A DNA stretch of 64,000 nucleotides, taken from the sequence record OZ413489.1; one strand, given 5' to 3'. The translations under genes and the position numbers were made by a program. Under the pieces are notes generated by a model, which was not told the origin of the DNA, did no database searches, and was given only the letters and a program-made list of their open reading frames with translations. Source of the stretch: a phage. Positions 48,459 through 59,779 of this stretch are shown piece by piece. The number at the start of each line of letters is the position of its first letter. Positions within the stretch are counted from its first letter, which is position 1.

Positions 48459-48460
48459 GT

Positions 48461-48538: not shown

Positions 48539-48658
48539 ATGAGCACTACACGCCAGCACACAAAGGTAACTATTATCGTTTGCATCATTGGTTATATCCT
48601 GGCGCAAATGTTGATGGGTAGCGCTAACGGTGTCGCAAAATTTTTCTTAAACTTTTAA
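48539..48658 (+). CDS. Small hydrophobic peptide (39 aa)
   Basis: RBS aaaggagg, 8 nt before the ATG; one predicted TM helix (TIIVCIIGYILAQMLMG). Confidence 0.45.
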   Translation: MSTTRQHTKVTIIVCIIGYILAQMLMGSANGVAKFFLNF

Positions 48659-48686
48659 TTGACAAGCTAACTTAGATCAGTATACT
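48659..48686 (+). promoter_or_regulatory. sigma70-type promoter
   Basis: TTGACA-16 bp-TATACT. Confidence 0.55.
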
Positions 48687-48698
48687 AAACACATAAAC

Positions 48699-48711
48699 GG
48701 GAAAACTTCCC
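48699..48711 (+). promoter_or_regulatory. 5'-UTR stem-loop
   Basis: ggg-aaaactt-ccc between the promoter and RBS aaaggagaaaac. Confidence 0.4.
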
Positions 48712-48735
48712 AGAACACCAAAAGGAGAAAACATT

Positions 48736-49086
48736 ATGAATACTTCCATCACTATGACCGCCGAAGAAAAAGCCCTGCAGATCGCCGCTCTGAAAAAACA
48801 GATTGCAGAACTTGAAGACAAGATCGACAATTTTGAAATCGACGAAGACAAATACGACGATAAATATGATGAATGGTTGGACGAGATCTACGGCGAAATT
48901 ATGATCGGAAACATTTCTTTTCTTCCGTCGCGTATCCTCAAGGAGCTAGATCCTATCGCTTACCGCTGCGGATTTAGCGACTACATCGACAGCCTGGATA
49001 TTGAGGACGATGAAGAATACCAGGAATTGCAGACAGAGCTTGAAGAAGTGAAAGAAGAGCTTGCAGAACTGGAAGAAAACGAGTAA
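48736..49086 (+). CDS. Hypothetical acidic coiled-coil protein
   Basis: 116 aa; heptad-like N and C termini; very acidic. Confidence 0.5.
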   Translation: MNTSITMTAEEKALQIAALKKQIAELEDKIDNFEIDEDKYDDKYDEWLDEIYGEIMIGNISFLPSRILKELDPIAYRCGFSDYIDSLDIEDDEEYQELQTELEEVKEELAELEENE

Positions 49087-49088
49087 GA

Positions 49089-49134
49089 TTATTTTTAGAT
49101 GGCCTTGACTCCAGGGCCATCAATAAAGTAAACT
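49089..49134 (+). promoter_or_regulatory. Repeated 46-bp promoter/palindrome element, copy 2
   Basis: Identical core to copy 1, directly after the stop at 49086. Confidence 0.5.
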
Positions 49135-49175
49135 TTATACTGTTAACACTGAACTAATGCATAGGAGTTAAAACC

Positions 49176-49421
49176 ATGGCAGCACTAATCACCAAATATT
49201 ATGCCCCTACCAACACCAAAAGCGCCCGTATCATGGTAAAAGGCTTCGGACGTAAAAAGGTTTACACTTGGGATTATTCCCTAGACATGGAAGACAACTA
49301 CACCAACGCGATGACCGATTTTATTAATGAACTAAATAAGCAGATCTTAACCAATTATAAGGTGACCGACATCGCCTATGTTGGGGAAGGTGGGATCTGT
49401 TTTGTCGGTATTGTCAAATAA
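49176..49421 (+). CDS. Hypothetical protein
   Basis: 81 aa; RBS ataggagtt. Confidence 0.5.
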   Translation: MAALITKYYAPTNTKSARIMVKGFGRKKVYTWDYSLDMEDNYTNAMTDFINELNKQILTNYKVTDIAYVGEGGICFVGIVK

Positions 49422-49496
49422 GCTGTTTTTTCGGTGGTCCTGGTGGCAGGGCCATCTATAAAGATAGTTTATTAACACCATGAAAGGAGAAAGTAC

Positions 49497-49850
49497 ATGA
49501 TCAGCGGGGCTAGTTTTATTATTGGCGCTATTGCTACAGCTTTAATTGTAAACAAGATCCAGGATAAAAAGGAAAGAGGAAGTACCGCCCTTGCAGAATA
49601 TCCATTTTGGACATTCAACGATAACGAAGATTATATTATAAAGTATAAAAATAAAGAAGGTGACCAAGTAACACCGCGACCGATCCCGGCTTACAAGATG
49701 CAGGAAACACTATACCGCTTGGAGGCAGGGGGCGCAAAAATTGTGGACTTTTGGGGATACGATCACACAGATCAGGAAGTTATAAAGCGCCGTATCCGGG
49801 CTATTCAGGCCAATATTGAAGTTAGCAAGGGGGGAATATATGAAGATTAA
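49497..49850 (+). CDS. Hypothetical protein with N-terminal hydrophobic segment
   Basis: 117 aa; RBS aaaggagaaag; N-terminal TM-like helix. Confidence 0.5.
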   Translation: MISGASFIIGAIATALIVNKIQDKKERGSTALAEYPFWTFNDNEDYIIKYKNKEGDQVTPRPIPAYKMQETLYRLEAGGAKIVDFWGYDHTDQEVIKRRIRAIQANIEVSKGGIYED

Positions 49851-50037
49851 TTTTGAGAAAATTGTAAAGCGATCTCATGATTCCGAAGAGCTGCCGGAAC
49901 GCCGCCAGCGTAACAATAAACTGAATAAGCCAAAAAGATTTGGGAAGATCTGGCGGAATCATTATGATCGTAAATTGCCGGGCCTCCTTTTGGAACGTGA
50001 ACGGCAGGCGGAACGATACCGCCACAAAGGCAACTAA
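49840..50037 (+). CDS. Hypothetical small basic protein
   Basis: Track ORF from 49816; ATG at 49840 after RBS aagggggg. Confidence 0.4.
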   Translation: MKINFEKIVKRSHDSEELPERRQRNNKLNKPKRFGKIWRNHYDRKLPGLLLERERQAERYRHKGN

Positions 50038-50044
50038 CAACCAA

Positions 50045-50073
50045 CGCCCCGCCATCGTGCGGGGCTTTTTATT
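50045..50073 (+). terminator. Rho-independent terminator
   Basis: gccccgc-catcgt-gcggggc + tttttattt. Confidence 0.75.
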
Positions 50074-50195
50074 TCTACCCTACGAATAGCGCCCCTGGTT
50101 GGCCCCACAACGCCCTAAAAGCCCCCTACCCATGCAATCCCATTTCTTAACCTGAAAACATCGTCAAAGGCTGTTTTAAAGCGTTAAAAATATTG

Positions 50196-50223
50196 TTGAC
50201 ATCTAAAATATTCTAGATATACT
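50196..50223 (+). promoter_or_regulatory. sigma70-type promoter
   Basis: TTGACA-16 bp-TATACT. Confidence 0.55.
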
Positions 50224-50258
50224 AATCACATCAAAGCGAGAAGTAAGGAGTAAACGCC

Positions 50259-50519
50259 ATGCGTAAATTAAAAAATTTTGATAAAGTTGATATTGTCCTG
50301 AATAATTTTTACTACTGCAATAACAAGGCCGTTTGGTGGCGTGATAGTTCCACCGATAAAGTCAAGGCGCGCTTTCTCCAGGGGCACTGGCAAGGCCGCC
50401 CAGTGATTAAAATCATGGGGCAATTGGTAGCGTTTAAAAATTGCCGCCGTGTTGATGACGTTGAAGAGATTTTAAACATTTTGCGCCACAATAATTTAAA
50501 AAATAGTGTTGACAAGTAA
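50259..50519 (+). CDS. Hypothetical protein
   Basis: 86 aa; RBS taaggagtaaac. Confidence 0.5.
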   Translation: MRKLKNFDKVDIVLNNFYYCNNKAVWWRDSSTDKVKARFLQGHWQGRPVIKIMGQLVAFKNCRRVDDVEEILNILRHNNLKNSVDK

Positions 50520-50536
50520 ATCTCAATAAGTATAAT
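50509..50536 (+). promoter_or_regulatory. sigma70-type promoter
   Basis: TTGACA-16 bp-TATAAT overlapping the stop of 50259-50519. Confidence 0.6.
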
Positions 50537-50546
50537 TAAAAACACA

Positions 50547-50565
50547 GGCGGGAAAACTTCCCGCC
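50547..50565 (+). promoter_or_regulatory. 5'-UTR stem-loop
   Basis: ggcggg-aaaactt-cccgcc, then RBS acaggagaaaat. Confidence 0.45.
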
Positions 50566-50593
50566 ACTAACAAAGAAAACAGGAGAAAATATC

Positions 50594-51217
50594 ATGACCA
50601 CCGTTAACATTACCACAGGTTACAATTTATCTTTCGACGTGCTGACCGACGAACAAAAAGAAAAAGCCGTGGAAATGGTCCGCGAAAGAGAAGAACACAG
50701 CGGGGATAACTTTTTTGCAGAAAGTGTAATTGAGTACTATAAAGAATATGTTTTTCCAGAGTACGGCCTTGAAGATACCGATGTACATTGGTCAGGCTTT
50801 TGGTGCCAGGGTGACGGCGCGTCAATCAGTGCGGAAAACGTGGATTTAGAAAAATTCTTGCGTAAAGTCAAGTCTCTGACTAAATTCCGCTCAATTCGTC
50901 ACTTGTTCGGCACAATGCACGATGGCGAGTTATCCGCAAGTGTTGAGCGTGATCCATATAGCCGCTATAGTCACGAAAACACTGTAAACGGATACATCGA
51001 TACTACATGGCTAGACCTGACCACCAAACAAGAAAACAAAGTGGAAGATCTGGAAGAGCTGATCACCGAGACGGTACGGGAGTTATCCCGCAAGGTTTAC
51101 GTAGACCTGGAGGAGGCCTATCTTGAACAATTCACCGCCGAAAACTTGATCGGCCTTATCGAGGCCAATGATTGGCGGTTTGATGTCGATGAACACGGTA
51201 AGATGACTTTTTCATAA
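50594..51217 (+). CDS. Hypothetical protein
   Basis: 207 aa. Confidence 0.55.
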   Translation: MTTVNITTGYNLSFDVLTDEQKEKAVEMVREREEHSGDNFFAESVIEYYKEYVFPEYGLEDTDVHWSGFWCQGDGASISAENVDLEKFLRKVKSLTKFRSIRHLFGTMHDGELSASVERDPYSRYSHENTVNGYIDTTWLDLTTKQENKVEDLEELITETVRELSRKVYVDLEEAYLEQFTAENLIGLIEANDWRFDVDEHGKMTFS

Positions 51218-51225
51218 ATAAAGTG

Positions 51226-51253
51226 TTGCAATAACCTAAAAACCTGCTATATT
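51226..51253 (+). promoter_or_regulatory. sigma70-type promoter
   Basis: TTGCAA-16 bp-TATATT, followed by a 5'-UTR hairpin. Confidence 0.45.
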
Positions 51254-51262
51254 AAAACTCAA

Positions 51263-51281
51263 GGGGCAAGACGTTTGCCCC
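51263..51281 (+). promoter_or_regulatory. 5'-UTR stem-loop
   Basis: ggggcaa-gacgt-ttgcccc, then RBS aaagaggtaaac. Confidence 0.45.
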
Positions 51282-51305
51282 ACACAAAACAAAGAGGTAA
51301 ACATT

Positions 51306-51686
51306 ATGAAAAACACTACTAAAGCTATTGACACCGTTATGTTTAACCTGGTTACATTCCGTGAAGATATGAAAGATCTTCCACGTGAAACAGTGTGCGA
51401 TCACATTGAAAACTATCGCAAACTAATCAAAGAGTTGCCTTTAAAACGTGACCAGTATGCGGCTAACGCTATGCTTAACGCCATGATCAAAAAGATGATT
51501 CAGTGTGATTTAACTCTGGCCTATGATTATGCAGGTGGTCGTTTTGCAGTATACAATCAGCCCGTGCCTGGTATGAGCACCACCGAAGAATTGCACGCGT
51601 TAAATCTGAAACAAGATGTATGGGATAACATGCCCCGCGTGGTGGTGTGGGCAGAAAGCGGAAAGATTTACGGCGATAATTTTTAA
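51306..51686 (+). CDS. Hypothetical protein
   Basis: 126 aa. Confidence 0.5.
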   Translation: MKNTTKAIDTVMFNLVTFREDMKDLPRETVCDHIENYRKLIKELPLKRDQYAANAMLNAMIKKMIQCDLTLAYDYAGGRFAVYNQPVPGMSTTEELHALNLKQDVWDNMPRVVVWAESGKIYGDNF

Positions 51687-51696
51687 TCAGGTAACA

Positions 51697-51722
51697 GGCG
51701 GCATATTTGCCGCCTTATTGTT
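51697..51722 (+). terminator. Rho-independent terminator
   Basis: ggcggc-atattt-gccgcc + ttattg. Confidence 0.55.
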
Positions 51723-51750
51723 AAACAGAACTGCAAAAGAGGTACATAGA

Positions 51751-52122
51751 ATGGAATTTATTATTTTGGCTGTAGTAGTTGCCTTGTTCAACGCCTGGAT
51801 CGCTGGCAAGATAGGTAGATCCGCTTTTCTATGGTTTGTTATATCTATTTTCCTGGGAGTGGTTGCAACTATTGTATTGGTTATCCTTGCAATTGTTGAC
51901 AAGGGCGATAATAGAAAGGGTAAAGTGTTTTCCGACCTGTATGACGCACAAACGTTTGTCAACGCCTATTATAGTGATCTTCCAGTCTCCCTACGCTGCA
52001 GCCTGGCACAACAGGTTTTTGATGAGGCTAAAACCAGAGACCAAGCCCATGAGATATGTTTAACTGAAGCGGATCGCCTATTTGAGAGGAATAGAAAATA
52101 TGTGGACCAGCCGTTTAAATAA
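51751..52122 (+). CDS. Membrane protein (two predicted TM helices)
   Basis: Track ORF from 51616 overlaps the upstream gene and terminator; ATG at 51751 follows RBS aaaagaggtac; begins MEFIILAVVVALFNAWIAG. Confidence 0.5.
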   Translation: MEFIILAVVVALFNAWIAGKIGRSAFLWFVISIFLGVVATIVLVILAIVDKGDNRKGKVFSDLYDAQTFVNAYYSDLPVSLRCSLAQQVFDEAKTRDQAHEICLTEADRLFERNRKYVDQPFK

Positions 52123-52321
52123 CGCCACGTTAATTAATCCCTTTAGTGAAGATTTGAAGCCAGCCGCCTGGCGTGACGGATTCAATAACGAACGCTTTAT
52201 TTTCAGGCCTGATCTTGAGGAATTTTATAACAATGGATCGAACAACAGCGGAGATAATTTTTCTTGTGGTGTGCGTGGTGATAGGACTCCTGGGGGCCAT
52301 TGTAAACCACGTCACTACTAA
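52100..52321 (+). CDS. Hypothetical small protein (uncertain frame)
   Basis: ATG with RBS gagaggaa; overlaps an alternative-frame peptide (52233-52358) that has a clear TM helix, so one of the two is probably spurious. Confidence 0.3.
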   Translation: MWTSRLNNATLINPFSEDLKPAAWRDGFNNERFIFRPDLEEFYNNGSNNSGDNFSCGVRGDRTPGGHCKPRHY

Positions 52322-52341
52322 CAGGAGGGAAGGGGGAGACG

Positions 52342-52461
52342 ATGACAACCAAAGATAAGCCATGCGCTGATAAGGTGCGCCGTGTTATGGTATGGCTTGA
52401 GATTATCGCCCTTGAAATATTGTTAGGCGTAGGGATGTACTTTATCGCTGTAAGTAACTAA
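52342..52461 (+). CDS. Small hydrophobic peptide (39 aa)
   Basis: RBS gggggaga before the ATG; TM helix VMVWLEIIALEILLGVGMYFIAV; terminator follows. Confidence 0.45.
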   Translation: MTTKDKPCADKVRRVMVWLEIIALEILLGVGMYFIAVSN

Positions 52462-52463
52462 GA

Positions 52464-52496
52464 GCGGCCCCCGATCATGGGGGCCTATCTTTTAAA
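52464..52496 (+). terminator. Rho-independent terminator
   Basis: ggccccc-gatcat-gggggcc + tatcttttaaaaaattttt. Confidence 0.65.
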
Positions 52497-52515
52497 AAAT
52501 TTTTCTTCCGGGGTG

Positions 52516-52544
52516 TTGCAATCCGGTCCGGAATGTGGATAATA
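52516..52544 (+). promoter_or_regulatory. sigma70-type promoter
   Basis: TTGCAA-17 bp-ATAATA; the -10 region contains TGTGGATAA. Confidence 0.5.
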
Positions 52545-52599
52545 ACAATCAACGGGGAGCTAATCCCCACCACCACAAAAACCAGAAAGGAGAAACAAA

Positions 52600-52800
52600 A
52601 TGAGCAACAATATCCGCGTTATTAACTTCAAAAAAGAAGAAAAAATTGCCGTGCTGATTGACGGTCAAGAAATCTTCAAGGGCGACTATGAAGATCATCA
52701 AACGGCGATTAGTATCACTCGCGTGATTGGTTATCATAATTTCTACCCCCAAGGCGCTGAGGCAGCAGTTAAACGAATCAAAGAGATTGTAGGCCTGTAA
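52600..52800 (+). CDS. Hypothetical small protein
   Basis: 66 aa; RBS aaaggagaaac. Confidence 0.5.
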   Translation: MSNNIRVINFKKEEKIAVLIDGQEIFKGDYEDHQTAISITRVIGYHNFYPQGAEAAVKRIKEIVGL

Positions 52801-52802
52801 AA

Positions 52803-52848
52803 TTTATTTTTAGATGGCCTTGACTTCAGGGCCATCGATAAAGTAAAT
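52803..52848 (+). promoter_or_regulatory. Repeated 46-bp promoter/palindrome element, copy 3
   Basis: aatttatttttagatggccttgacttcagggccatcgataaagtaaatt; two substitutions relative to copies 1 and 2. Confidence 0.5.
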
Positions 52849-52893
52849 TTAAACCCTGTTAAAATACCACGCAGTTAACAAGGAGTGATAGAC

Positions 52894-53193
52894 ATGTTTA
52901 TCCAGGCTAATAATCTTTATTTCTTTGATGGTCAGATCGTAGATGGTGTGGAAGTGGAGATCACCGGGTGCCCTGGCGGTCAGGCTATGACTTTTCGGAA
53001 TAATGCCTTTGATGATTCTCATATCGTTATAAGAATGGAAGTTACGAAGCTGGACGACAAGAAAACACTTATTGACTATTCTGTGAAAGATCATCCAGAC
53101 TACCGCATGATCCATGGTGATTTGTGCATTGTTGACCGTGACAAGGTGGGCGGCATTGTGATCGCTATTGTGAACGATGTTTTCTCAAACTAA
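52894..53193 (+). CDS. Hypothetical protein
   Basis: Track ORF from 52885; in-frame ATG about 9 nt in, after RBS aacaaggagtg. Confidence 0.5.
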   Translation: MFIQANNLYFFDGQIVDGVEVEITGCPGGQAMTFRNNAFDDSHIVIRMEVTKLDDKKTLIDYSVKDHPDYRMIHGDLCIVDRDKVGGIVIAIVNDVFSN

Positions 53194-53210
53194 TTTCAGC
53201 AGGCGATTTT

Positions 53211-53561
53211 ATGAAAGTCAAACTATATTACCTTAATGAGCTTAACCCCCTTGCCCAGGTCCGCGCCCTAGCTAATACCTTGATTTGTGAGAAATCTGTA
53301 TATTGTGTTGAGCTTAACGCCATGCGTGAACGTCTCAAAGGTGGTTACTTTGACATCCATGCTGCAATCAACGGCCTGAATATGGAATTTATACGCTTAC
53401 GTAACAGCCGCCGGAATCTGGCAAGAATGGAACAAGATCCGGCCCACCTTCGTAAACTGGTTATTGAAAATCATCTGATGTTTAATGCCGAGGGGGATTA
53501 TTACCATTTTCACCGCAAACGCTGGTACCGTGGCGGCAATACAGGCAAGAATGCAAAATAA
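53211..53561 (+). CDS. Hypothetical basic protein
   Basis: 116 aa ORF. Confidence 0.5.
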   Translation: MKVKLYYLNELNPLAQVRALANTLICEKSVYCVELNAMRERLKGGYFDIHAAINGLNMEFIRLRNSRRNLARMEQDPAHLRKLVIENHLMFNAEGDYYHFHRKRWYRGGNTGKNAK

Positions 53562-53597
53562 GGCCCCTAGCAGGGCCTGCAGCAATATAATCACATA

Positions 53598-53631
53598 AAG
53601 GCCATGCGGTTGCATGGCCTTTATTATTTTG
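53598..53631 (+). terminator. Rho-independent terminator
   Basis: aaaggccatgc-ggtt-gcatggccttt + attatttt. Confidence 0.7.
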
Positions 53632-53678
53632 GCGTTACAACGGCATACGGGGCGCTTAAAAAATTTTTAAAGAAGTAC

Positions 53679-53707
53679 TTGCATCATTCCCGACAATATG
53701 GATAATA
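53679..53707 (+). promoter_or_regulatory. sigma70-type promoter
   Basis: TTGCAT-17 bp-ATAATA; same -10 context (tgGATAATAa) as the promoter at 52516. Confidence 0.5.
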
Positions 53708-53770
53708 AGAGTTGTCGAGGGGGAGGCCCCCAATCGTTGACCAGATAGATAGGAGTTAAAATCATGGCTA

Positions 53771-54034
53771 TTGTTACCGCTGGCTATCTTCAAAGATGCG
53801 GAAGCAAAACAACGCCGGATCTCAATACATGAGATCATCAACCTTAACGCTGGAGGCACACCATACCGCCCAGGACCTGGCCGTGAGATGGACAATACGC
53901 TAGCGATCCTGAAGATACGCCGTAAACGGTCCTCCCTTACTCTGGACTCATTACACACAATGCAGCCTCCGTTCCAGGTGACCGGGAAACGGATCGCCAG
54001 GTCCTGGACAAAGGCCAATGATCGGACCGTATAA
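53771..54034 (+). CDS. Possible gene with aberrant start (candidate frameshifted gene or non-coding transcript)
   Basis: 87-codon ORF with only a TTG start; a well-placed RBS (taggagttaaaatc) precedes an ATG at about 53764 in another frame that stops after 22 codons. Confidence 0.25.
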   Translation: MLPLAIFKDAEAKQRRISIHEIINLNAGGTPYRPGPGREMDNTLAILKIRRKRSSLTLDSLHTMQPPFQVTGKRIARSWTKANDRTV

Positions 54035-54120
54035 ATAAAAGTGTTTTGGTACTGATTTTGGGGTTGACTTGTTCGGCCCCTTTTGCTATTCTTATTAAAC
54101 GGGCGGCACTTGGGAACAGG

Positions 54121-54143
54121 GGGAGACAATCACCGGGCCTGCC
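54121..54143 (-). other. Conserved hairpin-core motif, copy C (inverted)
   Basis: Minus-strand ggcaggcccggtgattgtctccc, identical over 23 nt to copy A at 46681. Confidence 0.4.
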
Positions 54144-54197: not shown

Positions 54198-54251
54198 TTA
54201 TCTTGAAGGGGCAAAAGTGCCCACACAACAACCAAGAGAGAGGAAAACACT

Positions 54252-54524: not shown

Positions 54525-54530
54525 TAAGAT
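54502..54530 (+). promoter_or_regulatory. sigma70-type promoter
   Basis: TTGAAT-17 bp-TAAGAT at the end of the upstream gene; a 5'-UTR hairpin gggccaaaaggccc (about 54539-54552) follows. Confidence 0.45.
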
Positions 54531-54584
54531 AATGACACGGGCCAAAAGGCCCACTAATCAGAACCGCACAAAGAGGTAAACATC

Positions 54585-54848
54585 ATGAAACGTCTTGATC
54601 AGCTCAAATTAGTTCAATATATGGCTTATCGTGTTCTTGAAGTCCAGAAAGGTAGCAAAAAAGAGGTTTGCGAGAAAGCTTATAAGATCTTCACTCGCAA
54701 AAAAGATGACTGGATGCTACGCCAGACTAAAAAGGCTGACATCTTGGGGTACCTGGAAGAAGAGATCCGCCTTGAAGAGCAAGAAGAGATCCGCCGTAGT
54801 GAGGCAGATTATCAGGCAGCTTGGGAAAACTGGATGAGCAACAAATAA
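54585..54848 (+). CDS. Hypothetical protein
   Basis: 87 aa; RBS aaagaggtaaac; last plus-strand gene before the non-coding region. Confidence 0.5.
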   Translation: MKRLDQLKLVQYMAYRVLEVQKGSKKEVCEKAYKIFTRKKDDWMLRQTKKADILGYLEEEIRLEEQEEIRRSEADYQAAWENWMSNK

Positions 54849-54867
54849 TACAACAAGGTGCACGGTC

Positions 54868-54893
54868 AGGGGCTTAAAGCCCCTTTCTTTTTG
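54868..54893 (+). terminator. Rho-independent terminator
   Basis: aggggc-ttaa-agcccct + ttctttttgtct. Confidence 0.75.
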
Positions 54894-55770
54894 TCTCCTC
54901 TTTTCCTACCACAAATGGCCCCGCCTGGCAAATGGAATAATCAACAAGCCAGCAATTAACCCCACTGTACAAACATACATATAAAATAACTATTGCATAA
55001 TTTTTCATTGTGTGGTAGCAGTGCCATTTTTACACGTTTTTCCTTCCAAAATTGCACGTAATGCAGCATTTGCACAAAATTTAACCTGATGCATATCTTC
55101 AATAGCTTGTCAACAACTAAAAATCTTTATAAGTCATACACTTACATAACTACAAAAACGTTTTCTACGTGAAAAATCGAGTATAACTATAGCCGCCAGA
55201 TCTCAGAATTTACGTACGCTCGCCATTCTATAGCCTGCTAAGCATTTATTCCAACCATAGAATAACGGAATAGTCAATACCTGCATAAAATAATTATTCG
55301 TGTAAACTGCATAACATAAATCGGCCCAGGTGTCAACATTTTTCGTAAACAGTCTGGAATTGTCACGTTAGGTTACCATAAGCAGAGAAATCTTTAGTCG
55401 TCTAATGTTTACTGTACATTACTATACTGACTGGAATCATTAGATGACTAAGAGAAAGATAAGAAATAATTAATAATGTAATTATTTTACCTGTAACAAT
55501 AAGGCAACTATGCAAACGAATGGCATGGCGCGACGGAGTCGCGACATAATATAAAAGCAGTAACCATCACCCCCGTGATAGTTTGTCTGCAAACTATTAA
55601 TCAGATCATAGTTGCCTTGTATTTAGTTAATCATGACATGACAAGCAAGGCAACTATAGATCTGCTAATAGTTGCCCTGCTTTTATATTATGTCATGCTA
55701 ATTATAATCAGTGCGATTATTGTCATGTATAATTATTGTCATGCAAACGAATGGCATGGCTGATTATCGG

Positions 55771-55860
55771 TGTGTAAACAGTCAATCATGTAAATGGTTA
55801 GCATGTGAACAATCAGGAATGTAAACAATCCAGTGTGTAAACTAATAGGTGTGTAAAAGT
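55771..55860. repeat. TGTAAAC-type iteron cluster
   Basis: gtgtaaaca, atgtaaatg, atgtaaaca, gtgtaaact, gtgtaaaag within about 90 bp. Confidence 0.45.
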
Positions 55861-56001
55861 GTCATGTTGTGTCAGTTAGGTCACATTATGTCAGACAAGT
55901 TTTTCTCCTCTTTGTCAAGTGCTGCATGAAAAATTTACAAGCTTGTATGGTAGCATTTTTGCGGCCCTGTTTACATTCAGTAATGTATGTATAATCCTTG
56001 T

Positions 56002-56165
56002 TGTGTGGGCGTTTAGACGTCTAGACGGTTGGAAGTCCACAGGTCAATATCTAATCTATCGGCTGCTAACTATATCCCACACATGTGTGGGCGTTTAGAC
56101 GTCTAGACGGTTGGAAGTCCACAGGTCAATATCTAATCTATCGGCTGCTAACTATATCCCACACA
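56002..56165. repeat. Perfect tandem duplication, 2 x 82 bp
   Basis: The unit tgtgtgggcgtttagacgtctagacggttggaagtccacaggtcaatatctaatctatcggctgctaactatatcccaca occurs twice head-to-tail with no mismatch seen; each copy contains the palindrome TAGACGTCTA; the junction forms CCCACACATGTGTGGG. Confidence 0.8.
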
Positions 56166-57461
56166 AATAGTAAGAAATATGATTGTTATATGCGTAAACT
56201 GTAACTCATGTTATCAATCCCTGTATGGATCGCCAGTGGTGCGCATAATAGGTATTATGTTAAATTGCCCGTAATGATAACAGTTCTCACAATGATAGGT
56301 ATTCTCATTCATCCACACAAAATAGGTTGCAAATGTTGTGCCACTGTGTGAACGGCCTGGCCTATTAATTTCTCTCACTGCCTCGATATTTGAGAATTGT
56401 TATAAGAATGAGAAGTATTCCCATTCCGTCCGCCTGGCAGCACTCCTGTAGGTCCTGCAAGGACTCTAGCTGAAAGCTAGACCCTTCGGGCCTCCCTGTA
56501 GGTCAGGTCAAAATCGTGGTAGAATTGGGCCTGTTCAGATATTTCTGGCTGACTCTTCAGGTCTGTGTGGGAAAAGCCAACCTCTCCGGCGGGGCAGGGG
56601 GTCATGACGGGAAAATTGCAGGTCAATTAAAAAATTTACGTGGTGTATGAAGCGCTCTTCAGGTAAGGCATGTATTATGGGATGAAACCCTCTTCAGGCA
56701 ATGATATTTGTGGGTGTGATATTTGCTGGAAAGCCAGATATGACGGGACTCCCGGCGGGGATGGGGTAGTACAGACAGGGAAAATATGAGAATGTAGTTG
56801 GGGAAATTGATCAGACAGGTAGAGTATGGAATATGTTACAAGTATGTTAAATATGGAGGTTGAATATCTGTAGGATTTGTGTGTAAAATCAAAGACTTAA
56901 GGGGTGTTGTGGTATTTTCTATAAATAATTCAAGTTTAATAGGCAATATTTGTCTCTATCCGCTTTGTGTGGTAAACAGATTCAGATTAGATTGGTTTAC
57001 AAGTGTATACATAATATACAAATTAAAGATACAAGAAACCCCCCTCCCCCTTCGGCTACCATTCACCTTTTCCTCTGACTGGTACTTAAACACTTATTCA
57101 GACTCTTCAGGTTATCACCCATATATCATATGGCAGTGACTGGTGTCCTCCGGCCCCTCTTTCGTCACCCGTCCGCTTCGCCATGCTAATGCCATAGCCA
57201 ATGGTTCGGTTGTTCACTCTGTTCACTCAGGTGTATCTCCATACCCCTTCAAACCGAAGAGAACAGAAAACCCGAATTACTCGGTAAAAGAAAAGAGAAG
57301 AACTTAATTTTATCAGGATAGGCAAGAATGTCAAGGCATGACTGCTCACTAAACAAGCAAACAGTCATGTGTGGAAGGTAAGTGATTGTGGTGGTGGGAA
57401 ATTTAGTTGAAAGATGTGTTATAGGTGCTCCCAGCACTTTAGCCGGGTAGCTAATTGTGTG

Positions 57462-57743
57462 TCAGTCCAGTGGTTCATCACCTACTTCACTGAAATCAAT
57501 GTTCATGGTCTCCTCCCAACCATCAATCTCAGCACCAGAGTAGAGATCTTTAGGACTTACTCCCAAAGCATCAGCAACAGAGTCCATATTTAACACCTCT
57601 GGCAGGTATGATTCATCGAATTCAAGGTAAATCAGGCCACGAGTGTTGTCAGCTCCACCAAATATTTCTATCTTCATGAAATCTCCTCTGGGAATGAGAG
57701 TGTGAACAGGGTTTATACGTTCCAATGCGCTGGAATTATGCAC
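57462..57743 (-). CDS. Hypothetical acidic protein
   Basis: 93-aa track ORF; possible true start at the internal Met (MKIEIFGG). Confidence 0.45.
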   Translation of the reverse strand: MHNSSALERINPVHTLIPRGDFMKIEIFGGADNTRGLIYLEFDESYLPEVLNMDSVADALGVSPKDLYSGAEIDGWEETMNIDFSEVGDEPLD

Positions 57744-57797
57744 GTTTGCCTCTTCAGGCCATGCTTCAGCATGAGGAACCTGTGTGGGCTCGGTGCT

Positions 57798-58010
57798 TCA
57801 TAGTCTACCACCCCTGAACTCTTCGTGCTCAGGCATAATAGAGAACCAGATATCTACGATGTCTTCCCACGTCAGGTCATCAGCCTCAGGATCTACCTGG
57901 AGCGAAGATGAAGAATCTTCAGAATCGAAGTTTTCCTCTTGCACTGGCTCAGTCAAGGGACATATAGTCACTCCTTTGGATGTCTCTTCAGATGCATGTG
58001 TGTTTATCAT
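57798..58010 (-). CDS. Hypothetical acidic protein
   Basis: 70 aa; ATG overlaps the stop of the upstream micro-ORF. Confidence 0.45.
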   Translation of the reverse strand: MINTHASEETSKGVTICPLTEPVQEENFDSEDSSSSLQVDPEADDLTWEDIVDIWFSIMPEHEEFRGGRL

Positions 58011-58096
58011 GTTCCACCCGTGAGTATTCCGGCAACAGCTGCTATGGACGTAATGATCATCAGGATCACCACTAAAACTTCGGACAATGTTCTCAT
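58007..58096 (-). CDS. Small hydrophobic peptide (29 aa)
   Basis: Minus-strand ATG after RBS tggag; MRTLSEVLVVILMIITSIAAVAGILTGGT; sits downstream of the minus-strand promoter at 58129-58158. Confidence 0.4.
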   Translation of the reverse strand: MRTLSEVLVVILMIITSIAAVAGILTGGT

Positions 58097-58128
58097 TGTG
58101 TACTCCATATTCTACAAACTATGTGTGG

Positions 58129-58158
58129 ATACTATCACTGGATCGGTAATGTGTCAAC
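58129..58158 (-). promoter_or_regulatory. sigma70-type promoter (minus strand)
   Basis: Minus-strand reading TTGACA-17 bp-TAGTAT. Confidence 0.5.
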
Positions 58159-58312
58159 AGAAACGCCGCGAGGGTTTGGTTAAAATCCGAGCGTATGGTG
58201 ATTTGGGTCAAAACGGACGTGCGTTCTCGCTACGCTCGAAATATGGAGTTGTTTGTAGGGAGCTCTTAAACGCTCTGTAATGAAATTAACTACCCAAGGT
58301 ATGCAATCGTGC

Positions 58313-58346
58313 ACCAGACAAAGAAAAGGACGCCACAGAGCGTCCT
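58313..58346 (-). terminator. Rho-independent terminator (minus strand)
   Basis: Minus-strand hairpin ggacgctctgtggcgtcc followed by ttttctttgtct, downstream of the gene ending at 58371. Confidence 0.65.
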
Positions 58347-58370
58347 AGGTGTCTTAAATTTGATATTTTG

Positions 58371-58682
58371 CTATACCCACGAGGGCTTATCAAGGTTGGA
58401 GTAGCTGAAAGGTGTCAAAAGGTGACTGTCAAAATCTCTCAAACTATCCAAATCTTTTTCCTCGTCCTGACACCATCTGTGCCTACATTTGTTGTTGTAG
58501 TGCATGGAATGCATAGCGTTCTGCAACTTAACAGGCACAAGTGATTCAGGAGTAGATAGTATTGTTGGGTATGCCAGAACCACCTCAAACAGTGGAAACA
58601 CATCGAAACTAAAGTCTACCTCTGCAGAGGTTGATGGCATATAGGAGTATTTAGCCGCCTTTGTAGACATAATCCACCTCAC
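58371..58682 (-). CDS. Hypothetical protein
   Basis: 103 aa; start overlaps the upstream stop. Confidence 0.5.
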   Translation of the reverse strand: MRWIMSTKAAKYSYMPSTSAEVDFSFDVFPLFEVVLAYPTILSTPESLVPVKLQNAMHSMHYNNKCRHRWCQDEEKDLDSLRDFDSHLLTPFSYSNLDKPSWV

Positions 58683-59011
58683 ACAGGTTTGATAATACCT
58701 TCACCGAATAGCTCTTCGTATCTAATCTTGTCCGGATCCCACTCCTGTATAATTTCGAAGACAATATCCAACCCAGGAACAATCACTTCTCCAGTGTCAA
58801 GCTTAGCAAGAACAAAACCGGAAGGTTGAATGGTTTCCCAGTTACGGCGATCAGAATAAAATACTTCGAAAATATCACCAACCTCAATCCGTTTCTGTTG
58901 CTCAAGATGCTGAAGGTTCTCTTTCATACGGATGCAGCGTATTTTTCGTGCAGGCCATAGACCACCTGCATCACGTTCATTCAATTCTTTTACAGTGATC
59001 GGTATACCCAT
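58679..59011 (-). CDS. Hypothetical protein
   Basis: 110 aa; RBS gaaggagac. Confidence 0.5.
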   Translation of the reverse strand: MGIPITVKELNERDAGGLWPARKIRCIRMKENLQHLEQQKRIEVGDIFEVFYSDRRNWETIQPSGFVLAKLDTGEVIVPGLDIVFEIIQEWDPDKIRYEELFGEGIIKPV

Positions 59012-59023
59012 CTCAAGTCTCCT

Positions 59024-59056
59024 TCATGGATAGTAAAAAGAGGGGCCTAAGCCCCC
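59024..59056. terminator. Hairpin terminator (functional on minus strand, possibly bidirectional)
   Basis: agaggggcctaagcccccctct flanked by aaaa / ttt tracts; lies after the minus gene ending at 59067. Confidence 0.55.
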
Positions 59057-59066
59057 CTCTTTGTCA

Positions 59067-59372
59067 TTATTCTACAGAGCGTTTGAACAGAATGTCTGCC
59101 TCAGACATGTGCTCAACCTCTTCTTCGATTTTAGCTCGACGTTTTTCAGCCTCATATCGAATATCGAACTCGGTAGCCACCAGAGATTTGATGAATTTAG
59201 GAGAATACAGATGATCCTGCTTCTCAACAAGAATGATATCCTTGATGGCATCTTTCAAATCTTTAATCTGAAGCTGGAGTTCCACCAGTTCTTCAATTGT
59301 TTTGCGAAGGCGATCACGTTCTGCAGTGTCAGAAGGAAGAGAGGTGAACAGTTCAACTTTAGATTTAGCCAT
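59067..59372 (-). CDS. Hypothetical coiled-coil protein
   Basis: 101 aa; RBS taaggagac; charged heptad-like sequence. Confidence 0.5.
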   Translation of the reverse strand: MAKSKVELFTSLPSDTAERDRLRKTIEELVELQLQIKDLKDAIKDIILVEKQDHLYSPKFIKSLVATEFDIRYEAEKRRAKIEEEVEHMSEADILFKRSVE

Positions 59373-59400
59373 AGTAAGAGTCTCCTTATGTTGTTTTAAA

Positions 59401-59652
59401 TTAACGTTCTACAAAAATACCGTTCAGTTCAATAACCAGGAATTTCTGGTCTTCACTATCGTCTCGTGCCAGCACCTCACAGACGTATCGGTCATCCCCA
59501 TCATCATCGCAGTCAAATACAAGACTGAGGACTTTATCATGGTAAACCTTCGCCACTACCGCCTCGTAAGTATTGCCGATTGTGAATCCAAGATAATCTC
59601 CGATGCATTTGACAACAACATGGTCTCCAGCATTTAAGTCAATCTTCGTCAT
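59401..59652 (-). CDS. Hypothetical protein
   Basis: Track ORF to 59718; RBS aaggag precedes the internal Met (MTKIDLNAGDHVV) at about 59652. Confidence 0.45.
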   Translation of the reverse strand: MTKIDLNAGDHVVVKCIGDYLGFTIGNTYEAVVAKVYHDKVLSLVFDCDDDGDDRYVCEVLARDDSEDQKFLVIELNGIFVER

Positions 59653-59779
59653 TACTGCGCTCCTTGGGTAATAATACTGTATGTAAAACTTTAACCAGAG
59701 ATGTGAATAACGCCCCAAAACACACCGATAGCGCTAAAACAGACAAGGCCATCATTAAAGCTTCAGTAAAATCCGTCAT
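59642..59779 (-). CDS. Small membrane peptide (45 aa)
   Basis: Minus-strand ATG after RBS gaggtgagga; TM helix ALMMALSVLALSVCFGALF; overlaps the next start. Confidence 0.4.

What the first reader, a model, noticed from the sequence alone, without database searches (positions are those of the whole stretch)
48539..59779. Several micro-genes for hydrophobic peptides with strong ribosome-binding sites
Four ORFs below the 60-aa track threshold (48539-48658, 52342-52461, 58007-58096, 59642-59779; 29-45 aa) each have a good Shine-Dalgarno and encode one predicted transmembrane helix. A possible fifth is at 52233-52358. They could be small membrane effectors such as holin-like, superinfection-exclusion or protease/kinase-modulating peptides.
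Basis: seen in the sequence. Interest (0 to 1): 0.45.

Follow-up and report, generated by a model that had tools for sequence, protein, structure and literature searches.

The report
Tiny membrane-peptide genes of rV5-like phage
The five tiny ORFs are real, conserved early genes of an rV5-like E. coli phage, each encoding a one-helix membrane peptide; four are already annotated (function unknown, not required for growth in the lab), and the fifth is almost never annotated because a conventionally called ORF overlaps it.

Summary
The window is an rV5-like (Vequintavirus) E. coli myophage. All five micro-ORFs exist as described: 39, 39, 29, 46 and 41 aa, each with an SD-like motif and one hydrophobic helix. 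They are not chance ORFs. SD+TM ORFs of 25-60 aa number 7 in 46-64 kb, against 0.5 in shuffles. Each is intact in 113-119 phage genomes. Each shows an excess of synonymous changes only in its own frame (p 3e-5 to 8e-3). ORF2 also occurs at ~50% identity in an uncultured sister clade.

ORF1, ORF2 and ORF4 are rV5 gp193, gp181 and gp156, listed as "membrane protein, 1 TMD" in 2013. ORF3 is Murica gp147. All four have PHROG families of unknown function. ORF5 lies hidden under the annotated ORF182 family, but selection acts on the ORF5 frame.

Published transposon sequencing of a 95%-identical phage (Bas54) shows ORF1, ORF2 and the ORF182/ORF5 locus are non-essential. ORF4 is "intermediate" and ORF3 was unclassified. 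Three neighbouring genes are conditionally required host-range or anti-defence genes.

The most likely role is accessory inner-membrane peptides that modulate host membrane proteins. A holin role is unlikely. The genes are known and ordinary; their function is still open.

The parts
48458..48506 (+). 49-nt hairpin-plus-promoter cassette (ATGGCC-TTGACTCC-AGGGCCAT, then TAAACT) directly upstream of ORF1. It is one of four copies and resembles a PeSL.
   Evidence: Repeat family D1, with copies at 48458, 49086, 49421 and 52801. Promoter-like TTGACT-18-TAAACT at 48477-48506. Sequence read. PeSL concept from PMC2839356.
48539..48658 (+). ORF1, 39 aa, MSTTRQHTKVTIIVCIIGYILAQMLMGSANGVAKFFLNF. It corresponds to rV5 gp193, phrog_16391 and bas54_0107. 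Predicted N-in single-pass peptide with an invariant C-terminal AKFFLNF.
   Evidence: 113 records; 21 syn / 25 nonsyn, p=1.7e-4, own frame only.
48659..48686 (+). Strong sigma-70-type promoter (TTGACA-16-TATACT) that starts immediately after the ORF1 stop codon. It is annotated as P192 in rV5.
51751..52122 (+). 123-aa membrane protein (rV5 gp183; labelled 'putative holin' in BASEL annotation). It is the first gene of the overlapping chain gp183 - frame A - ORF5 - ORF2.
   Evidence: Non-essential in Bas54, with 27 of 28 TA sites hit.
52100..52321 (+). Frame A ORF, 73 aa (rV5 ORF182, phrog_12060, bas54_0116). Only its N-terminal ~45 codons show a coding signature. Its tail overlaps ORF5 in another frame.
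   Evidence: In 52123-52232 omega is 0.28 (p=5e-4). In the overlap 52233-52321 omega is 1.02 (p=0.59).
52233..52358 (+). ORF5, 41 aa, MDRTTAEIIFLVVCVVIGLLGAIVNHVTTNRREGGDDDNQR. A hidden single-pass peptide with an acidic C-tail, annotated only in phage Gotham.
   Evidence: own frame omega 0.41-0.45, p=0.008-0.009; open in 119 records; ATG and the (G/A)AGGA motif conserved.
52342..52461 (+). ORF2, 39 aa, MTTKDKPCADKVRRVMVWLEIIALEILLGVGMYFIAVSN. It corresponds to rV5 gp181, phrog_13629 and bas54_0117. It has a basic N-terminus, a helix with two conserved Glu residues and a GxG motif, and overlaps ORF5 by 17 nt.
   Evidence: 119 records; homologues at ~50% identity in L005 and L022-L025.
52466..52485 (+). 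Intrinsic-terminator-like hairpin (GGCCCCCGATCATGGGGGCC followed by a T-run) that closes the operon right after ORF2.
   Evidence: Annotated as a terminator in Murica.
58007..58096 (-). ORF3, 29 aa, MRTLSEVLVVILMIITSIAAVAGILTGGT. An upstream ATG at 58108 gives a 33-aa form. It corresponds to Murica gp147, phrog_34195 and bas54_0138. Its stop overlaps the ATG of the next ORF (ATGA).
   Evidence: 21/16, p=1.8e-4; 114 records; in rV5 it is hidden under a 5'-extended ORF162.
58129..58157 (-). Sigma-70-type promoter (TTGACA-17-TAGTAT with an extended -10 TG) upstream of ORF3.
59639..59779 (-). ORF4, 46 aa, MTDFTEALMMALSVLALSVCFGALFTSLVKVLHTVLLPKERSNDED. It corresponds to rV5 gp156, phrog_16755 and bas54_0144, whose protein is 100% identical. 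Predicted N-out, C-in. It overlaps the next gene by 14 nt.
   Evidence: 19/15, p=2.9e-5; 118 records.
59799..59827 (-). Sigma-70-type promoter (TTGACG-17-TATAGT) directly upstream of the ORF4 SD.
60081..60164 (-). Additional candidate micro-ORF ('ORF6'), 27 aa, MINLAKVATALLIICWSVTLTLCLVFQ. It has an ATGA overlap with the upstream 95-aa gene. It is unannotated and the evidence is inconclusive.
   Evidence: not in the protein collection; omega does not distinguish frames.
62848..62949 (-). Additional micro-gene ('ORF7'), 33 aa, MGVIKKLVPNVEIACFEIMFAIAVVVNVLGYGY. By size and position it equals rV5 gp145, 'membrane protein, 1 TMD'.
   Evidence: L005 homologue ending ...VVNFLGYGY; seen on 753 contigs.

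Best explanation
These are genuine protein-coding micro-genes of the early, accessory ('mainly small ORFs') region of a Vequintavirus.

What is shown:
- Each ORF is kept intact in more than 110 genomes.
- Each evolves under purifying selection in its own reading frame only.
- Each keeps a start codon with an SD-like motif in a weakly folded initiation region.
- ORF1, ORF3 and ORF4 each sit just downstream of a sigma-70-type promoter. ORF5 and ORF2 lie inside an operon closed by a terminator.
- ORF2, ORF3, ORF4 and ORF5 overlap a neighbouring ORF, as expected for translational coupling.
- The hydrophobic segment stays hydrophobic when it varies.
- In the 95%-identical phage Bas54 the genes tolerate transposon insertion. 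They are therefore accessory, not part of the core lytic programme.

What is inferred:
- Host RNA polymerase transcribes them early in infection.
- The 29-46-aa products insert into the E. coli inner membrane as single helices. By the positive-inside rule, ORF1, ORF2 and ORF3 are N-in, and ORF4 and ORF5 are N-out with a charged cytoplasmic tail.
- The peptides are too small for catalysis, so they most likely act by helix-helix binding to host or phage inner-membrane proteins. This would tune transport, envelope or division functions, entry of competing phage DNA, or membrane-anchored defence.
- The benefit would appear only in particular hosts or conditions.

ORF5 is a real gene whose frame, not that of the overlapping annotated ORF182 tail, carries the constraint.

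Sub-confidences: real translated genes ~0.9 for ORF1-4 and ~0.7 for ORF5; membrane insertion ~0.8; the partner-binding modulator mechanism ~0.35.
For: Identity of the window:
- It is 94-96% identical to rV5-like phages.

Conservation:
- ORF1-5 are found full length in 113, 119, 114, 118 and 119 phage records.
- Distinct (site, allele) substitutions across 9-22 distinct relatives, given as synonymous / nonsynonymous in the ORF's own frame: ORF1 21/25 (p=1.7e-4), ORF2 18/15 (p=3e-5), ORF3 21/16 (p=1.8e-4), ORF4 19/15 (p=2.9e-5), ORF5 19/27 (p=0.0075).
- The two other frames of each ORF give p>0.04 and omega of about 0.5-2.
- Omega is 0.23-0.46 for the micro-ORFs, against 0.02-0.27 for accepted neighbouring genes.
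- ORF2 has homologues at 49-51% identity in five metagenomic contigs of a sister clade. These conserve KDKP, W, two Glu residues, GxG and YFIA.

Translation signals:
- SD motifs and starts are conserved.
- Initiation regions are unstructured.

Enrichment over chance.

Prior annotation:
- rV5 Table S3 lists gp156, gp181 and gp193 as 'membrane protein, 1 TMD' by TMHMM/Phobius.
- Full-length PHROG matches were found.
- Exact sequences are in NCBI/UniRef.

Dispensability, from HIDEN-SEQ on Bas54:
- bas54_0107: 6 of 6 TA sites hit.
- bas54_0116: 14 of 15.
- bas54_0117: 11 of 11; these three are classed non-essential.
- bas54_0138: 5 of 5, unclassified.
- bas54_0144: 9 of 12, 'intermediate'.
- At least 5 of the 6 TA sites inside ORF5 were hit.

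Accessory and host-interaction context:
- The flanking genes bas54_0106, bas54_0108 and bas54_0140 are conditionally required in clinical isolates or against the predicted defence system DS-28.
Against: - There is no direct evidence of translation or membrane localisation for any of them. I found no ribosome profiling or infection proteomics for a Vequintavirus.
- Constraint is weaker than on neighbouring genes.
- The SD of ORF5 is far from the start (11 nt). That of ORF3 is a bare 4-mer that degrades to GGAA or GGGA in some relatives.
- ORF2's helix is borderline for insertion (additive dG about 0).
- None of the five was significantly depleted in the one conditional Bas54 screen readable here, K-12 versus CFE311. 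No phenotype is therefore known.
- No homology to any characterised small membrane protein was found, so the mechanism rests on analogy only.
- For ORF5, frame A also stays open in all 23 sequences examined, and the statistics are modest.
Confidence: 0.78

Rival explanations
1. ORF5 is not a gene. Only the overlapping, conventionally annotated frame-A ORF (rV5 ORF182, phrog_12060) is translated, and the ORF5 frame stays open by chance or through constraints on frame A.
For: - Frame A is open (73-81 aa) in all 23 sequences examined, and its N-terminal part is clearly coding: omega 0.28, p=5e-4.
- Gene callers choose it in almost every genome.
- ORF5 has a long SD spacing and only moderate statistics (p about 0.008).
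- ORF5 was deposited as a protein only once, in phage Gotham.
Against: - Within the 89-nt overlap, substitutions follow the ORF5 frame: 16 syn / 18 nonsyn, omega 0.41, third-position excess 17 against 8 and 9.
- They do not follow frame A: 8 syn / 28 nonsyn, omega 1.02.
- The frame-A tail changes length (73, 74 or 81 aa) and sequence freely.
- ORF5 keeps exactly 41 codons, its ATG, a hydrophobic core that changes only to other hydrophobic residues, and a GGDDD(N/T)QG tail. It is open in 119 records.
Confidence: 0.25
2. The peptides are specifically superinfection-exclusion or DNA-entry blockers, analogous to T4 Imm/Sp or HK97 gp15. They would be made early to shut the inner membrane to later-arriving phages.
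For: - Early sigma-70 promoter context.
- Membrane-peptide nature.
- Dispensable in single-phage lab infection, which is what an exclusion factor would look like.
- Known exclusion proteins of lytic coliphages are small early inner-membrane proteins (established knowledge).
Against: - No sequence relation to any exclusion family in Pfam or PHROGs.
- At 29-46 aa they are about half the size of Imm or Sp (51 aa for Ac).
- Seven different peptides are unlikely all to serve this one role.
- No exclusion assay exists.
Confidence: 0.15
3. They belong to the lysis system as holin, pinholin, antiholin or spanin-like components.
For: - One TM helix with a charged C-terminus in ORF4 and ORF5.
- ORF5 gives sub-threshold PHROG hits to a spanin (E=0.034) and a holin (E=0.072).
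- The neighbouring 123-aa membrane protein is labelled 'putative holin' in BASEL records.
Against: - The hits are not significant.
- The genes lie in the early region behind sigma-70-type promoters. They are not near the lysin gp89, and the putative holin gp129 of rV5 maps outside the window.
- Bas54 annotates its spanins at the start of the terminase operon.
- All classified members, and the 'putative holin' itself, tolerate transposon insertions. This is unexpected for a sole holin.
- Early expression of a hole-former would be self-defeating.
Confidence: 0.06
4. They are type-I-toxin-like peptides that depolarise the host membrane for host shut-off. Alternatively, they are merely leader or coupling ORFs whose translation regulates the downstream gene, with the peptide sequence irrelevant.
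For: - Their size and hydrophobicity resemble Hok, TisB, Ldr or Ibs toxins (established knowledge).
- ORF3 and ORF4 are the first ORF after a promoter and overlap the start of the next gene. This is the layout of a coupling leader.
Against: - No NCBIfam or Pfam toxin family matches.
- No antisense promoter or terminator pair was seen around them.
- Frame-specific purifying selection and strictly hydrophobic replacement show that the amino-acid sequence matters, which argues against a pure leader role.
- ORF1 is not coupled to anything: a promoter follows its stop.
Confidence: 0.08
5. The ORFs are chance open frames in intergenic DNA or in shadows of other genes.
For: They are very short. ORF3 and ORF5 are missing from the type-genome annotation.
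Against: - Sevenfold or greater enrichment over shuffles.
- Intact in 113-119 genomes.
- Synonymous excess in one frame only.
- A homologue at ~50% identity for ORF2.
Confidence: 0.03

Closest known systems
rV5 gp193, gp181, gp156 (and gp145); Murica gp147; PHROGs 16391, 13629, 16755, 34195
   Same: These are the same genes. They give full-length HMM matches with E from 1e-21 to 1e-36. Synteny and overlaps are identical. Exact protein sequences are already in NCBI/UniRef. The rV5 paper lists them as 'membrane protein, 1 TMD'.
   Different: Nothing substantive: 0-7 amino-acid differences. No function has ever been assigned. ORF3 is missing from the rV5 record, where a 5'-extended ORF162 covers it.
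Phage T4 small early inner-membrane proteins Imm, Sp and Ac
   Same: They are early-expressed, non-essential small membrane proteins of a large lytic coliphage that act on the host envelope. Imm and Sp give exclusion. Ac is thought to act on AcrAB-TolC, as stated in PMC13250531. The other properties are established knowledge.
   Different: There is no sequence similarity (no Pfam or PHROG link). Imm and Sp are 83-97 aa, and Imm has two helices. The peptides here are 29-46 aa with a single helix.
Bacterial small membrane regulators (MgrB-PhoQ, AcrZ-AcrB, MgtS-MgtA, KdpF, CydX) and the papillomavirus E5 type of TM 'traptamer'
   Same: Peptides of 30-50 aa with a single helix that work purely by transmembrane helix packing against a larger membrane protein (established knowledge). 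This is the mechanism I consider most likely here.
   Different: No NCBIfam or Pfam match at E up to 5. No partner is known. These are phage-encoded and confined to Vequintavirus plus one sister clade.
Staphylococcus phage PhiNM1 Gp11
   Same: A small membrane protein from a phage early region. It binds essential host membrane-associated proteins (MurG, DivIC) and blocks division (PMC11237401). It sets a precedent for the proposed mode of action.
   Different: It comes from a Gram-positive temperate siphophage with an unrelated sequence. Gp11 is growth-inhibitory, and no toxicity data exist for the peptides here.
Type I toxins (Hok/Gef, TisB, Ldr, Ibs, ShoB) and class III/pinholin-type holins
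   Same: Short, hydrophobic, single helix, sometimes with a charged tail.
   Different: No family match. No antisense RNA signals. The genes are in an early accessory location rather than a lysis cassette, and their relatives tolerate disruption.

Membership tests
rV5 gp193 family (phrog_16391) - ORF1 | Full-length profile match, plus the same genomic slot between the gp194 and gp192 homologues, followed by promoter P192. | tested here: met
   E=1.8e-31 over residues 1-39 of 39. Synteny with rV5 ORF193 and P192. Exact sequence in NCBI.
rV5 gp181 family (phrog_13629) - ORF2 | Full-length profile match. Last gene of the gp184-gp181 operon, before the terminator. | tested here: met
   E=7.6e-32 over 1-39 of 39. 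The rV5 hit coincides with CDS ORF181. Terminator at 52466-52485.
Murica gp147 family (phrog_34195) - ORF3 | Full-length profile match, plus ATGA overlap with the downstream acidic ORF. | tested here: met
   E=2.8e-21 over 1-29 of 29. Murica CDS 13713-13802 overlaps gp148. Exact sequence equals AKU44239.1.
rV5 gp156 family (phrog_16755) - ORF4 | Full-length profile match, plus 14-nt overlap with the gp157 homologue. | tested here: met
   E=3.6e-36 over 1-46 of 46. Same overlap as rV5 ORF156/157. 100% identical to bas54_0144.
Any described protein family - ORF5 | Significant match to a Pfam, PHROG or NCBIfam profile. | tested here: not met
   Best hits are E=0.034 (PHROG spanin), 0.2 (Pfam) and 0.081 (NCBIfam), all far below the cut-offs. 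One deposited protein exists, in phage Gotham.
Holins | At least one TM domain and a charged, hydrophilic C-terminus. | tested here: inconclusive
   All five have one TM segment. A charged C-tail is present only in ORF4 and ORF5. ORF1, ORF2 and ORF3 end 2-13 residues after the helix without one.
Holins | Encoded in a lysis cassette or expressed late. Profile similarity to a holin family. | tested here: not met
   Sigma-70-type early promoters lie upstream. The lysin gp89 and putative holin gp129 are elsewhere in rV5. There is no significant holin profile hit.
Holins | Required for timed lysis (hole formation). | not testable with these tools
   Indirect evidence only: the Bas54 orthologues tolerate transposon insertion on K-12, which argues against a unique essential holin.
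Superinfection-exclusion proteins (T4 Imm/Sp-type and others) | Sequence membership in a known exclusion family. | tested here: not met
   No Pfam or PHROG match.
Superinfection-exclusion proteins (T4 Imm/Sp-type and others) | Blocks entry of, or productive infection by, a second phage. | not testable with these tools
   Needs efficiency-of-plating and DNA-entry assays with peptide-expressing cells.
Type I toxins (Hok, Ldr, Ibs, TisB, ShoB, ...) | Profile match, plus an overlapping or adjacent antisense RNA gene. | tested here: not met
   No NCBIfam or Pfam hit. No antisense promoter/terminator pair. No Rfam match in 46-64 kb.
Bacterial small membrane regulators (MgrB, AcrZ, MgtS, KdpF, CydX, ...) | Profile match to the family. 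| tested here: not met
   No NCBIfam or Pfam hit at E up to 5. Analogy of mechanism only.
PeSL (promoter-early stem-loop) cassettes of T4-type phages - context of ORF1 | Repeated intergenic element combining a stem-loop with a sigma-70 early promoter, flanking ORFan genes in plastic regions. | tested here: inconclusive
   Four copies of a 49-nt hairpin-plus-promoter element were found, three of them before accepted genes and one before ORF1. The layout differs from the description in PMC2839356: here the -35 hexamer sits inside the hairpin loop and there is no polyG/polyC stem. Promoter and terminator activity were not tested.

The most novel reading that the evidence does not exclude
The seven or more single-helix micro-peptides of this region may be a phage 'transmembrane toolkit'. 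Each would be tuned to bind a different host inner-membrane complex or membrane-anchored defence system, so they would be condition-specific host-range or anti-defence factors like their immediate neighbours bas54_0106, bas54_0108 and bas54_0140. One of them, ORF5, has stayed invisible because gene callers in more than 100 genomes pick the overlapping, largely unconstrained tail of ORF182 instead.
Probability: 0.2. Interest if true: 0.55.

Novelty: already known. Interest (0 to 1): 0.25.

Why it matters
Very small membrane proteins are the class that genome annotation and proteomics most easily miss. The early regions of large lytic phages are full of them.

Here the comparative evidence shows they are real and under selection. 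Published transposon data show they are dispensable in a lab strain, while three flanking genes are needed only in particular hosts or against a defence system. The peptides are therefore reasonable candidates for host-specific functions in therapeutic rV5-like phages, though not new discoveries.

Two practical points follow:
- ORF182 (phrog_12060) is probably over-extended in more than 100 genomes and hides a 41-aa membrane peptide.
- rV5 ORF162 is over-extended across ORF3.

Both are simple, testable annotation corrections.

Tried and rejected
1. Looked for known families for all seven peptides in Pfam, NCBIfam, PHROGs and PDB. Only PHROGs of unknown function matched.
2. Searched for remote homologues of ORF2.
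   - The word-indexed search found only relatives at 73-98% identity. Searches failed because the query was under 40 aa.
   - An exhaustive HMMER search of 1.84 billion representatives found one cluster.
   - The family is therefore confined to this phage group.
3. Tried to identify the sister clade carrying the ~50% ORF2 homologue. It has no cultured representative in the phage collection.
4. Asked whether the sister clade's 'ORF2 - 115-aa membrane protein - 38-aa TM peptide' module is homologous to gp183/ORF5 here. It is not; the resemblance is only analogous clustering.
5. Considered a programmed +1 frameshift fusing the frame-A N-terminus to the ORF5 helix. Rejected for three reasons:
   - No slippery or stop-codon site was found.
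   - The only rare codon (AGG) is not conserved (it is AAA in L003/L013).
   - ORF5 has its own conserved ATG.
6. Checked whether the HIDEN-SEQ conditional hits bas54_0108 and bas54_0140 are the micro-genes, because numbering in other BASEL phages suggested so. After fetching Bas54 (MaxBurger), they turned out to be the neighbouring 116-aa and 99-aa genes.
7. Looked for Vequintavirus transcriptome or translation data, and for genome-wide CRISPRi-ART data on EdH4. None was found.
8. Scanned 46-64 kb against Rfam and the whole window for tRNAs. There were no hits.
9. Tested ORF6 (60081-60164). There were too few substitutions to tell frames apart.
10. Tried to read Fremin et al. 2022; the paper is not held.

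Full report
**What the window is.** The 13-kb stretch around the finding is 94-96% identical to more than 100 GenBank genomes of rV5-like E. coli myophages, genus Vequintavirus. The finding lies in the part of the genome that the rV5 paper describes as '88 mainly small ORFs'. That part flanks an ORF-free block (PMC3606486). Genes run rightward up to about 54.85 kb and leftward from about 57.46 kb.

**The observation.** All five ORFs are present.

| ORF | Coordinates | Length | SD and spacing |
|---|---|---|---|
| ORF1 | 48539-48658 (+) | 39 aa | AAAGGAGG, 7 nt |
| ORF2 | 52342-52461 (+) | 39 aa | G-rich AGGAGGGAAGGGGGAG, proximal GGAG 3 nt |
| ORF3 | 58007-58096 (-) | 29 aa | GGAG, 6 nt |
| ORF4 | 59639-59779 (-) | 46 aa | GAGGTGAGGA |
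| ORF5 | 52233-52358 (+) | 41 aa | GAGGA, 11 nt |

- An upstream ATG at 58108 would give a 33-aa form of ORF3.
- Each peptide has one strongly hydrophobic segment.
- ORF2 is borderline because it has two Glu residues in the helix.
- The five initiation regions fold less stably than their shuffles, with z from +0.6 to +1.55.

**Chance.** I scanned for 25-60-aa ORFs with an SD core 3-11 nt upstream and a 17-residue hydropathy of at least 2.0.
- The scan gives 7 hits in 46-64 kb. One hundred dinucleotide shuffles give 0.51 +/- 0.71, with a maximum of 4.
- It gives a single hit in the other 46 kb.
They are 60081-60164 (-) and 62848-62949 (-).

**Are they genes?** tblastn finds ORF1-5 uninterrupted in 113, 119, 114, 118 and 119 phage records. 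I fetched 9-22 distinct relatives. For every distinct (site, allele) difference I asked whether it is synonymous in each of the three frames.

| ORF | Syn / nonsyn in own frame | p |
|---|---|---|
| ORF1 | 21 / 25 | 1.7e-4 |
| ORF2 | 18 / 15 | 3e-5 |
| ORF3 | 21 / 16 | 1.8e-4 |
| ORF4 | 19 / 15 | 2.9e-5 |
| ORF5 | 19 / 27 | 0.0075 |

- The excess of synonymous changes appears only in the ORF's own frame.
- The crude omega is 0.23-0.46 for the micro-ORFs. Accepted neighbouring genes give 0.02-0.27, and out-of-frame readings give about 0.5-5. The micro-ORFs are therefore constrained, but less tightly than their neighbours.
- Start codons are kept. ORF4 alternates between ATG and GTG.
- SD motifs are kept too, although ORF3's decays to GGAA or GGGA in some relatives, where the upstream ATG gains a GGAG.
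- Helix positions change only to other hydrophobic residues.
- ORF2 also occurs at 49-51% identity in five metagenomic contigs of an uncultured sister clade. These conserve KDKP, Trp, two Glu residues, GxG and YFIA.
- Beyond that clade the family is absent. The word-indexed search found 15 close clusters. The exhaustive HMMER search found one cluster among 1.84 billion representatives.

**Expression context.**
- ORF1 follows a 49-nt hairpin-plus-promoter cassette. Three other copies of this cassette precede accepted genes. A strong TTGACA-16-TATACT promoter, P192 in rV5, starts right after the ORF1 stop. This layout recalls the PeSL-flanked ORFan cassettes of T4-type phages (PMC2839356).
- ORF3 and ORF4 each lie just downstream of a sigma-70-type promoter, and each overlaps the start of the next gene by 4 and 14 nt respectively.
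- ORF2 closes an operon and is followed by a strong terminator hairpin.
- gp183 (a 123-aa membrane protein), frame A, ORF5 and ORF2 form a chain of overlapping ORFs.

**What was already known.**
- rV5 annotates ORF1 as ORF193, ORF2 as ORF181 and ORF4 as ORF156.
- Table S3 of the rV5 paper lists all three as 'membrane protein, 1 TMD'. It lists gp145 the same way, and gp145 matches the extra ORF at 62848-62949 in size and position.
- ORF3 is Murica gp147. BASEL phages annotate its 33-aa form.
- In rV5 itself ORF3 is hidden under a 5'-extended ORF162 in another frame. The substitution pattern favours ORF3 over that extension.
- ORF1-4 each match a PHROG of unknown function over their full length, and their exact sequences are in NCBI/UniRef.
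- No Pfam, NCBIfam or PDB relative exists.

**ORF5.** This is the only part that is not standard annotation.
- Nearly all records instead call the overlapping frame-A ORF of 73 or 81 aa (ORF182, phrog_12060), or they call nothing. ORF5 was deposited once, in phage Gotham.
- Upstream of ORF5 (52123-52232), frame A is clearly coding, with omega 0.28 and p=5e-4.
- Inside the overlap (52233-52321), the constraint switches to the ORF5 frame, with omega 0.41 and p=0.009. Frame A there gives omega 1.02.
- The frame-A tail varies in both length and sequence.
- I found no plausible frameshift site that would join the two frames.
- My reading is a short frame-A protein whose unconstrained tail overlaps a genuine 41-aa membrane-peptide gene. 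I put the confidence at about 0.7.

**Experimental evidence from the literature.** A 2025 preprint (bioRxiv 10.1101/2025.11.20.689424) reports transposon-insertion sequencing of Bas54. I identified Bas54 as phage MaxBurger, MZ501093, and matched its genes to the window by sequence.

| Bas54 gene | Window ORF | TA sites hit | Class |
|---|---|---|---|
| bas54_0107 | ORF1 | 6 of 6 | non-essential |
| bas54_0116 | frame A (holds 5 of ORF5's 6 TA sites) | 14 of 15 | non-essential |
| bas54_0117 | ORF2 | 11 of 11 | non-essential |
| bas54_0138 | ORF3 | 5 of 5 | unclassified (too few sites) |
| bas54_0144 | ORF4 | 9 of 12 | 'intermediate' |

- At least 5 of the 6 TA sites inside ORF5 were hit.
- The 'putative holin' bas54_0115 is also non-essential.
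- In the K-12 versus CFE311 comparison none of the five is significantly depleted.
- Their neighbours are. bas54_0106 is the gene just upstream of ORF1 and has log2FC -3.18. bas54_0140, which corresponds to window 58371-58682, has log2FC -5.48 and is reported as required against the predicted defence system DS-28. bas54_0108, the gene just downstream of ORF1, is reported as depleted in isolate CFE303.
- The micro-genes thus sit in an island of accessory host-interaction genes and are themselves dispensable on a lab strain.

**Mechanism.**
- Shown: these are conserved, selected, non-essential micro-genes with a hydrophobic helix and early-type signals.
- Inferred: host RNA polymerase transcribes them early.
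- Inferred: the peptides insert into the inner membrane. ORF1, ORF2 and ORF3 would be N-in, and ORF4 and ORF5 N-out with charged cytoplasmic tails.
- Inferred: they act by helix packing against larger membrane proteins. Precedents are the bacterial regulators MgrB and AcrZ, T4 Imm/Sp/Ac, and the staphylococcal phage protein Gp11, which binds MurG and DivIC (PMC11237401).
- The conserved parts hint at where specificity lies. These are the C-terminal AKFFLNF in ORF1, the helix with E20, E25 and GxG in ORF2, the N-terminus and helix in ORF4, and the GGDDD tail in ORF5.
- Holin, type-I-toxin, leader-ORF and chance explanations are each disfavoured for the reasons listed under rival explanations.

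**Verdict.** Four of the five have been annotated for years as membrane proteins of unknown function, and they behave as ordinary accessory early genes of a large lytic phage. The modest new points are the evidence that ORF5 is a hidden gene under ORF182, and that ORF3 rather than the ORF162 extension is the coding frame. Function remains unknown. Interest is low to moderate.

Noticed in passing
window 54900-57450, especially 56002-56165: This ~2.5-kb block has no ORFs and lies between the convergent gene arrays. It contains a perfect 82-nt tandem duplication (56002-56083 and 56084-56165) whose unit begins TGTGTGGG and ends CCCACACA. The rV5 paper calls the block 'non-coding'. HIDEN-SEQ found no transposon insertions in the equivalent ~2-kb region of Bas54 and suggested an important function. 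There is no Rfam or tRNA hit.
   Followed up: partly
window 48458-48506, 49086-49134, 49421-49469, 52801-52849: Four copies of a 49-nt element combine an A/T-rich run, a hairpin (ATGGCC...GGCCAT) carrying a TTGACT -35 hexamer in its loop, and a TAAACT -10. This is a PeSL-like promoter/stem-loop cassette in a non-T4-type phage. It may drive shuffling of the small-gene cassettes.
   Followed up: partly
window 57798-58010 (-): The 70-aa acidic ORF downstream of ORF3 (Murica gp148, phrog_16356) shows no frame-specific excess of synonymous changes: omega is 0.58, 0.88 and 0.75 in the three frames. In Bas54 it is annotated in a shorter form. Its coding status or true extent is doubtful.
   Followed up: no
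L012 (rV5) 19153-19458 (-), equivalent to window ~57798-58100: rV5 ORF162 is annotated with a GTG start that extends it across ORF3 in another frame. The comparative data favour ORF3, so the extension looks like a mis-annotation.
   Followed up: partly
The first is an unannotated 27-aa ORF that is absent from the 15-billion-protein collection, and its evidence is inconclusive. The second is a 33-aa ORF equal to rV5 gp145, seen on 753 contigs, with a ...VVNFLGYGY homologue in the sister clade.
   Followed up: partly
window ~53600-53780: Compared with most relatives the window lacks about 2.7 kb, which in rV5 includes two further small membrane-protein genes, gp170 and gp173. The junction carries a 31-nt repeat of the start region of the gene at 49176 (53738-53768 versus 49150-49180). 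This suggests a recombinational deletion between similar gene starts.
   Followed up: partly
window 46347-46532: Three tandem, diverged repeats of ~65-74 nt (70-74% identity) lie upstream of the small-gene region. Their function is unknown.
   Followed up: no
window 48063-48458, 48736-49086, 58371-58682: These three ordinary-sized neighbours correspond to bas54_0106, bas54_0108 and bas54_0140. All three are reported or tabulated as conditionally required in clinical E. coli isolates, and bas54_0140 is reported as required against the predicted defence system DS-28. The window therefore carries homologues of newly reported candidate anti-defence or host-range genes.
   Followed up: partly
GenBank MG0656xx records (e.g. 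L032): About 18 'Campylobacter phage' records, flagged UNVERIFIED, are ~93-99% identical to this E. coli phage. They are classified as Vequintavirus and are probably mislabelled or contaminant assemblies.
   Followed up: no
L005 2964-3071, 5011-5127, 16846-16992, 17271-17351, 18265-18369, 18671-18748: The uncultured sister-clade phage also carries many SD-preceded single-helix micro-ORFs of 25-48 aa in the syntenic early regions. One is a 48-aa peptide at the position of ORF4 with the same layout but no detectable sequence similarity. A high density of membrane micro-genes seems to be a shared trait of this phage group.
   Followed up: partly
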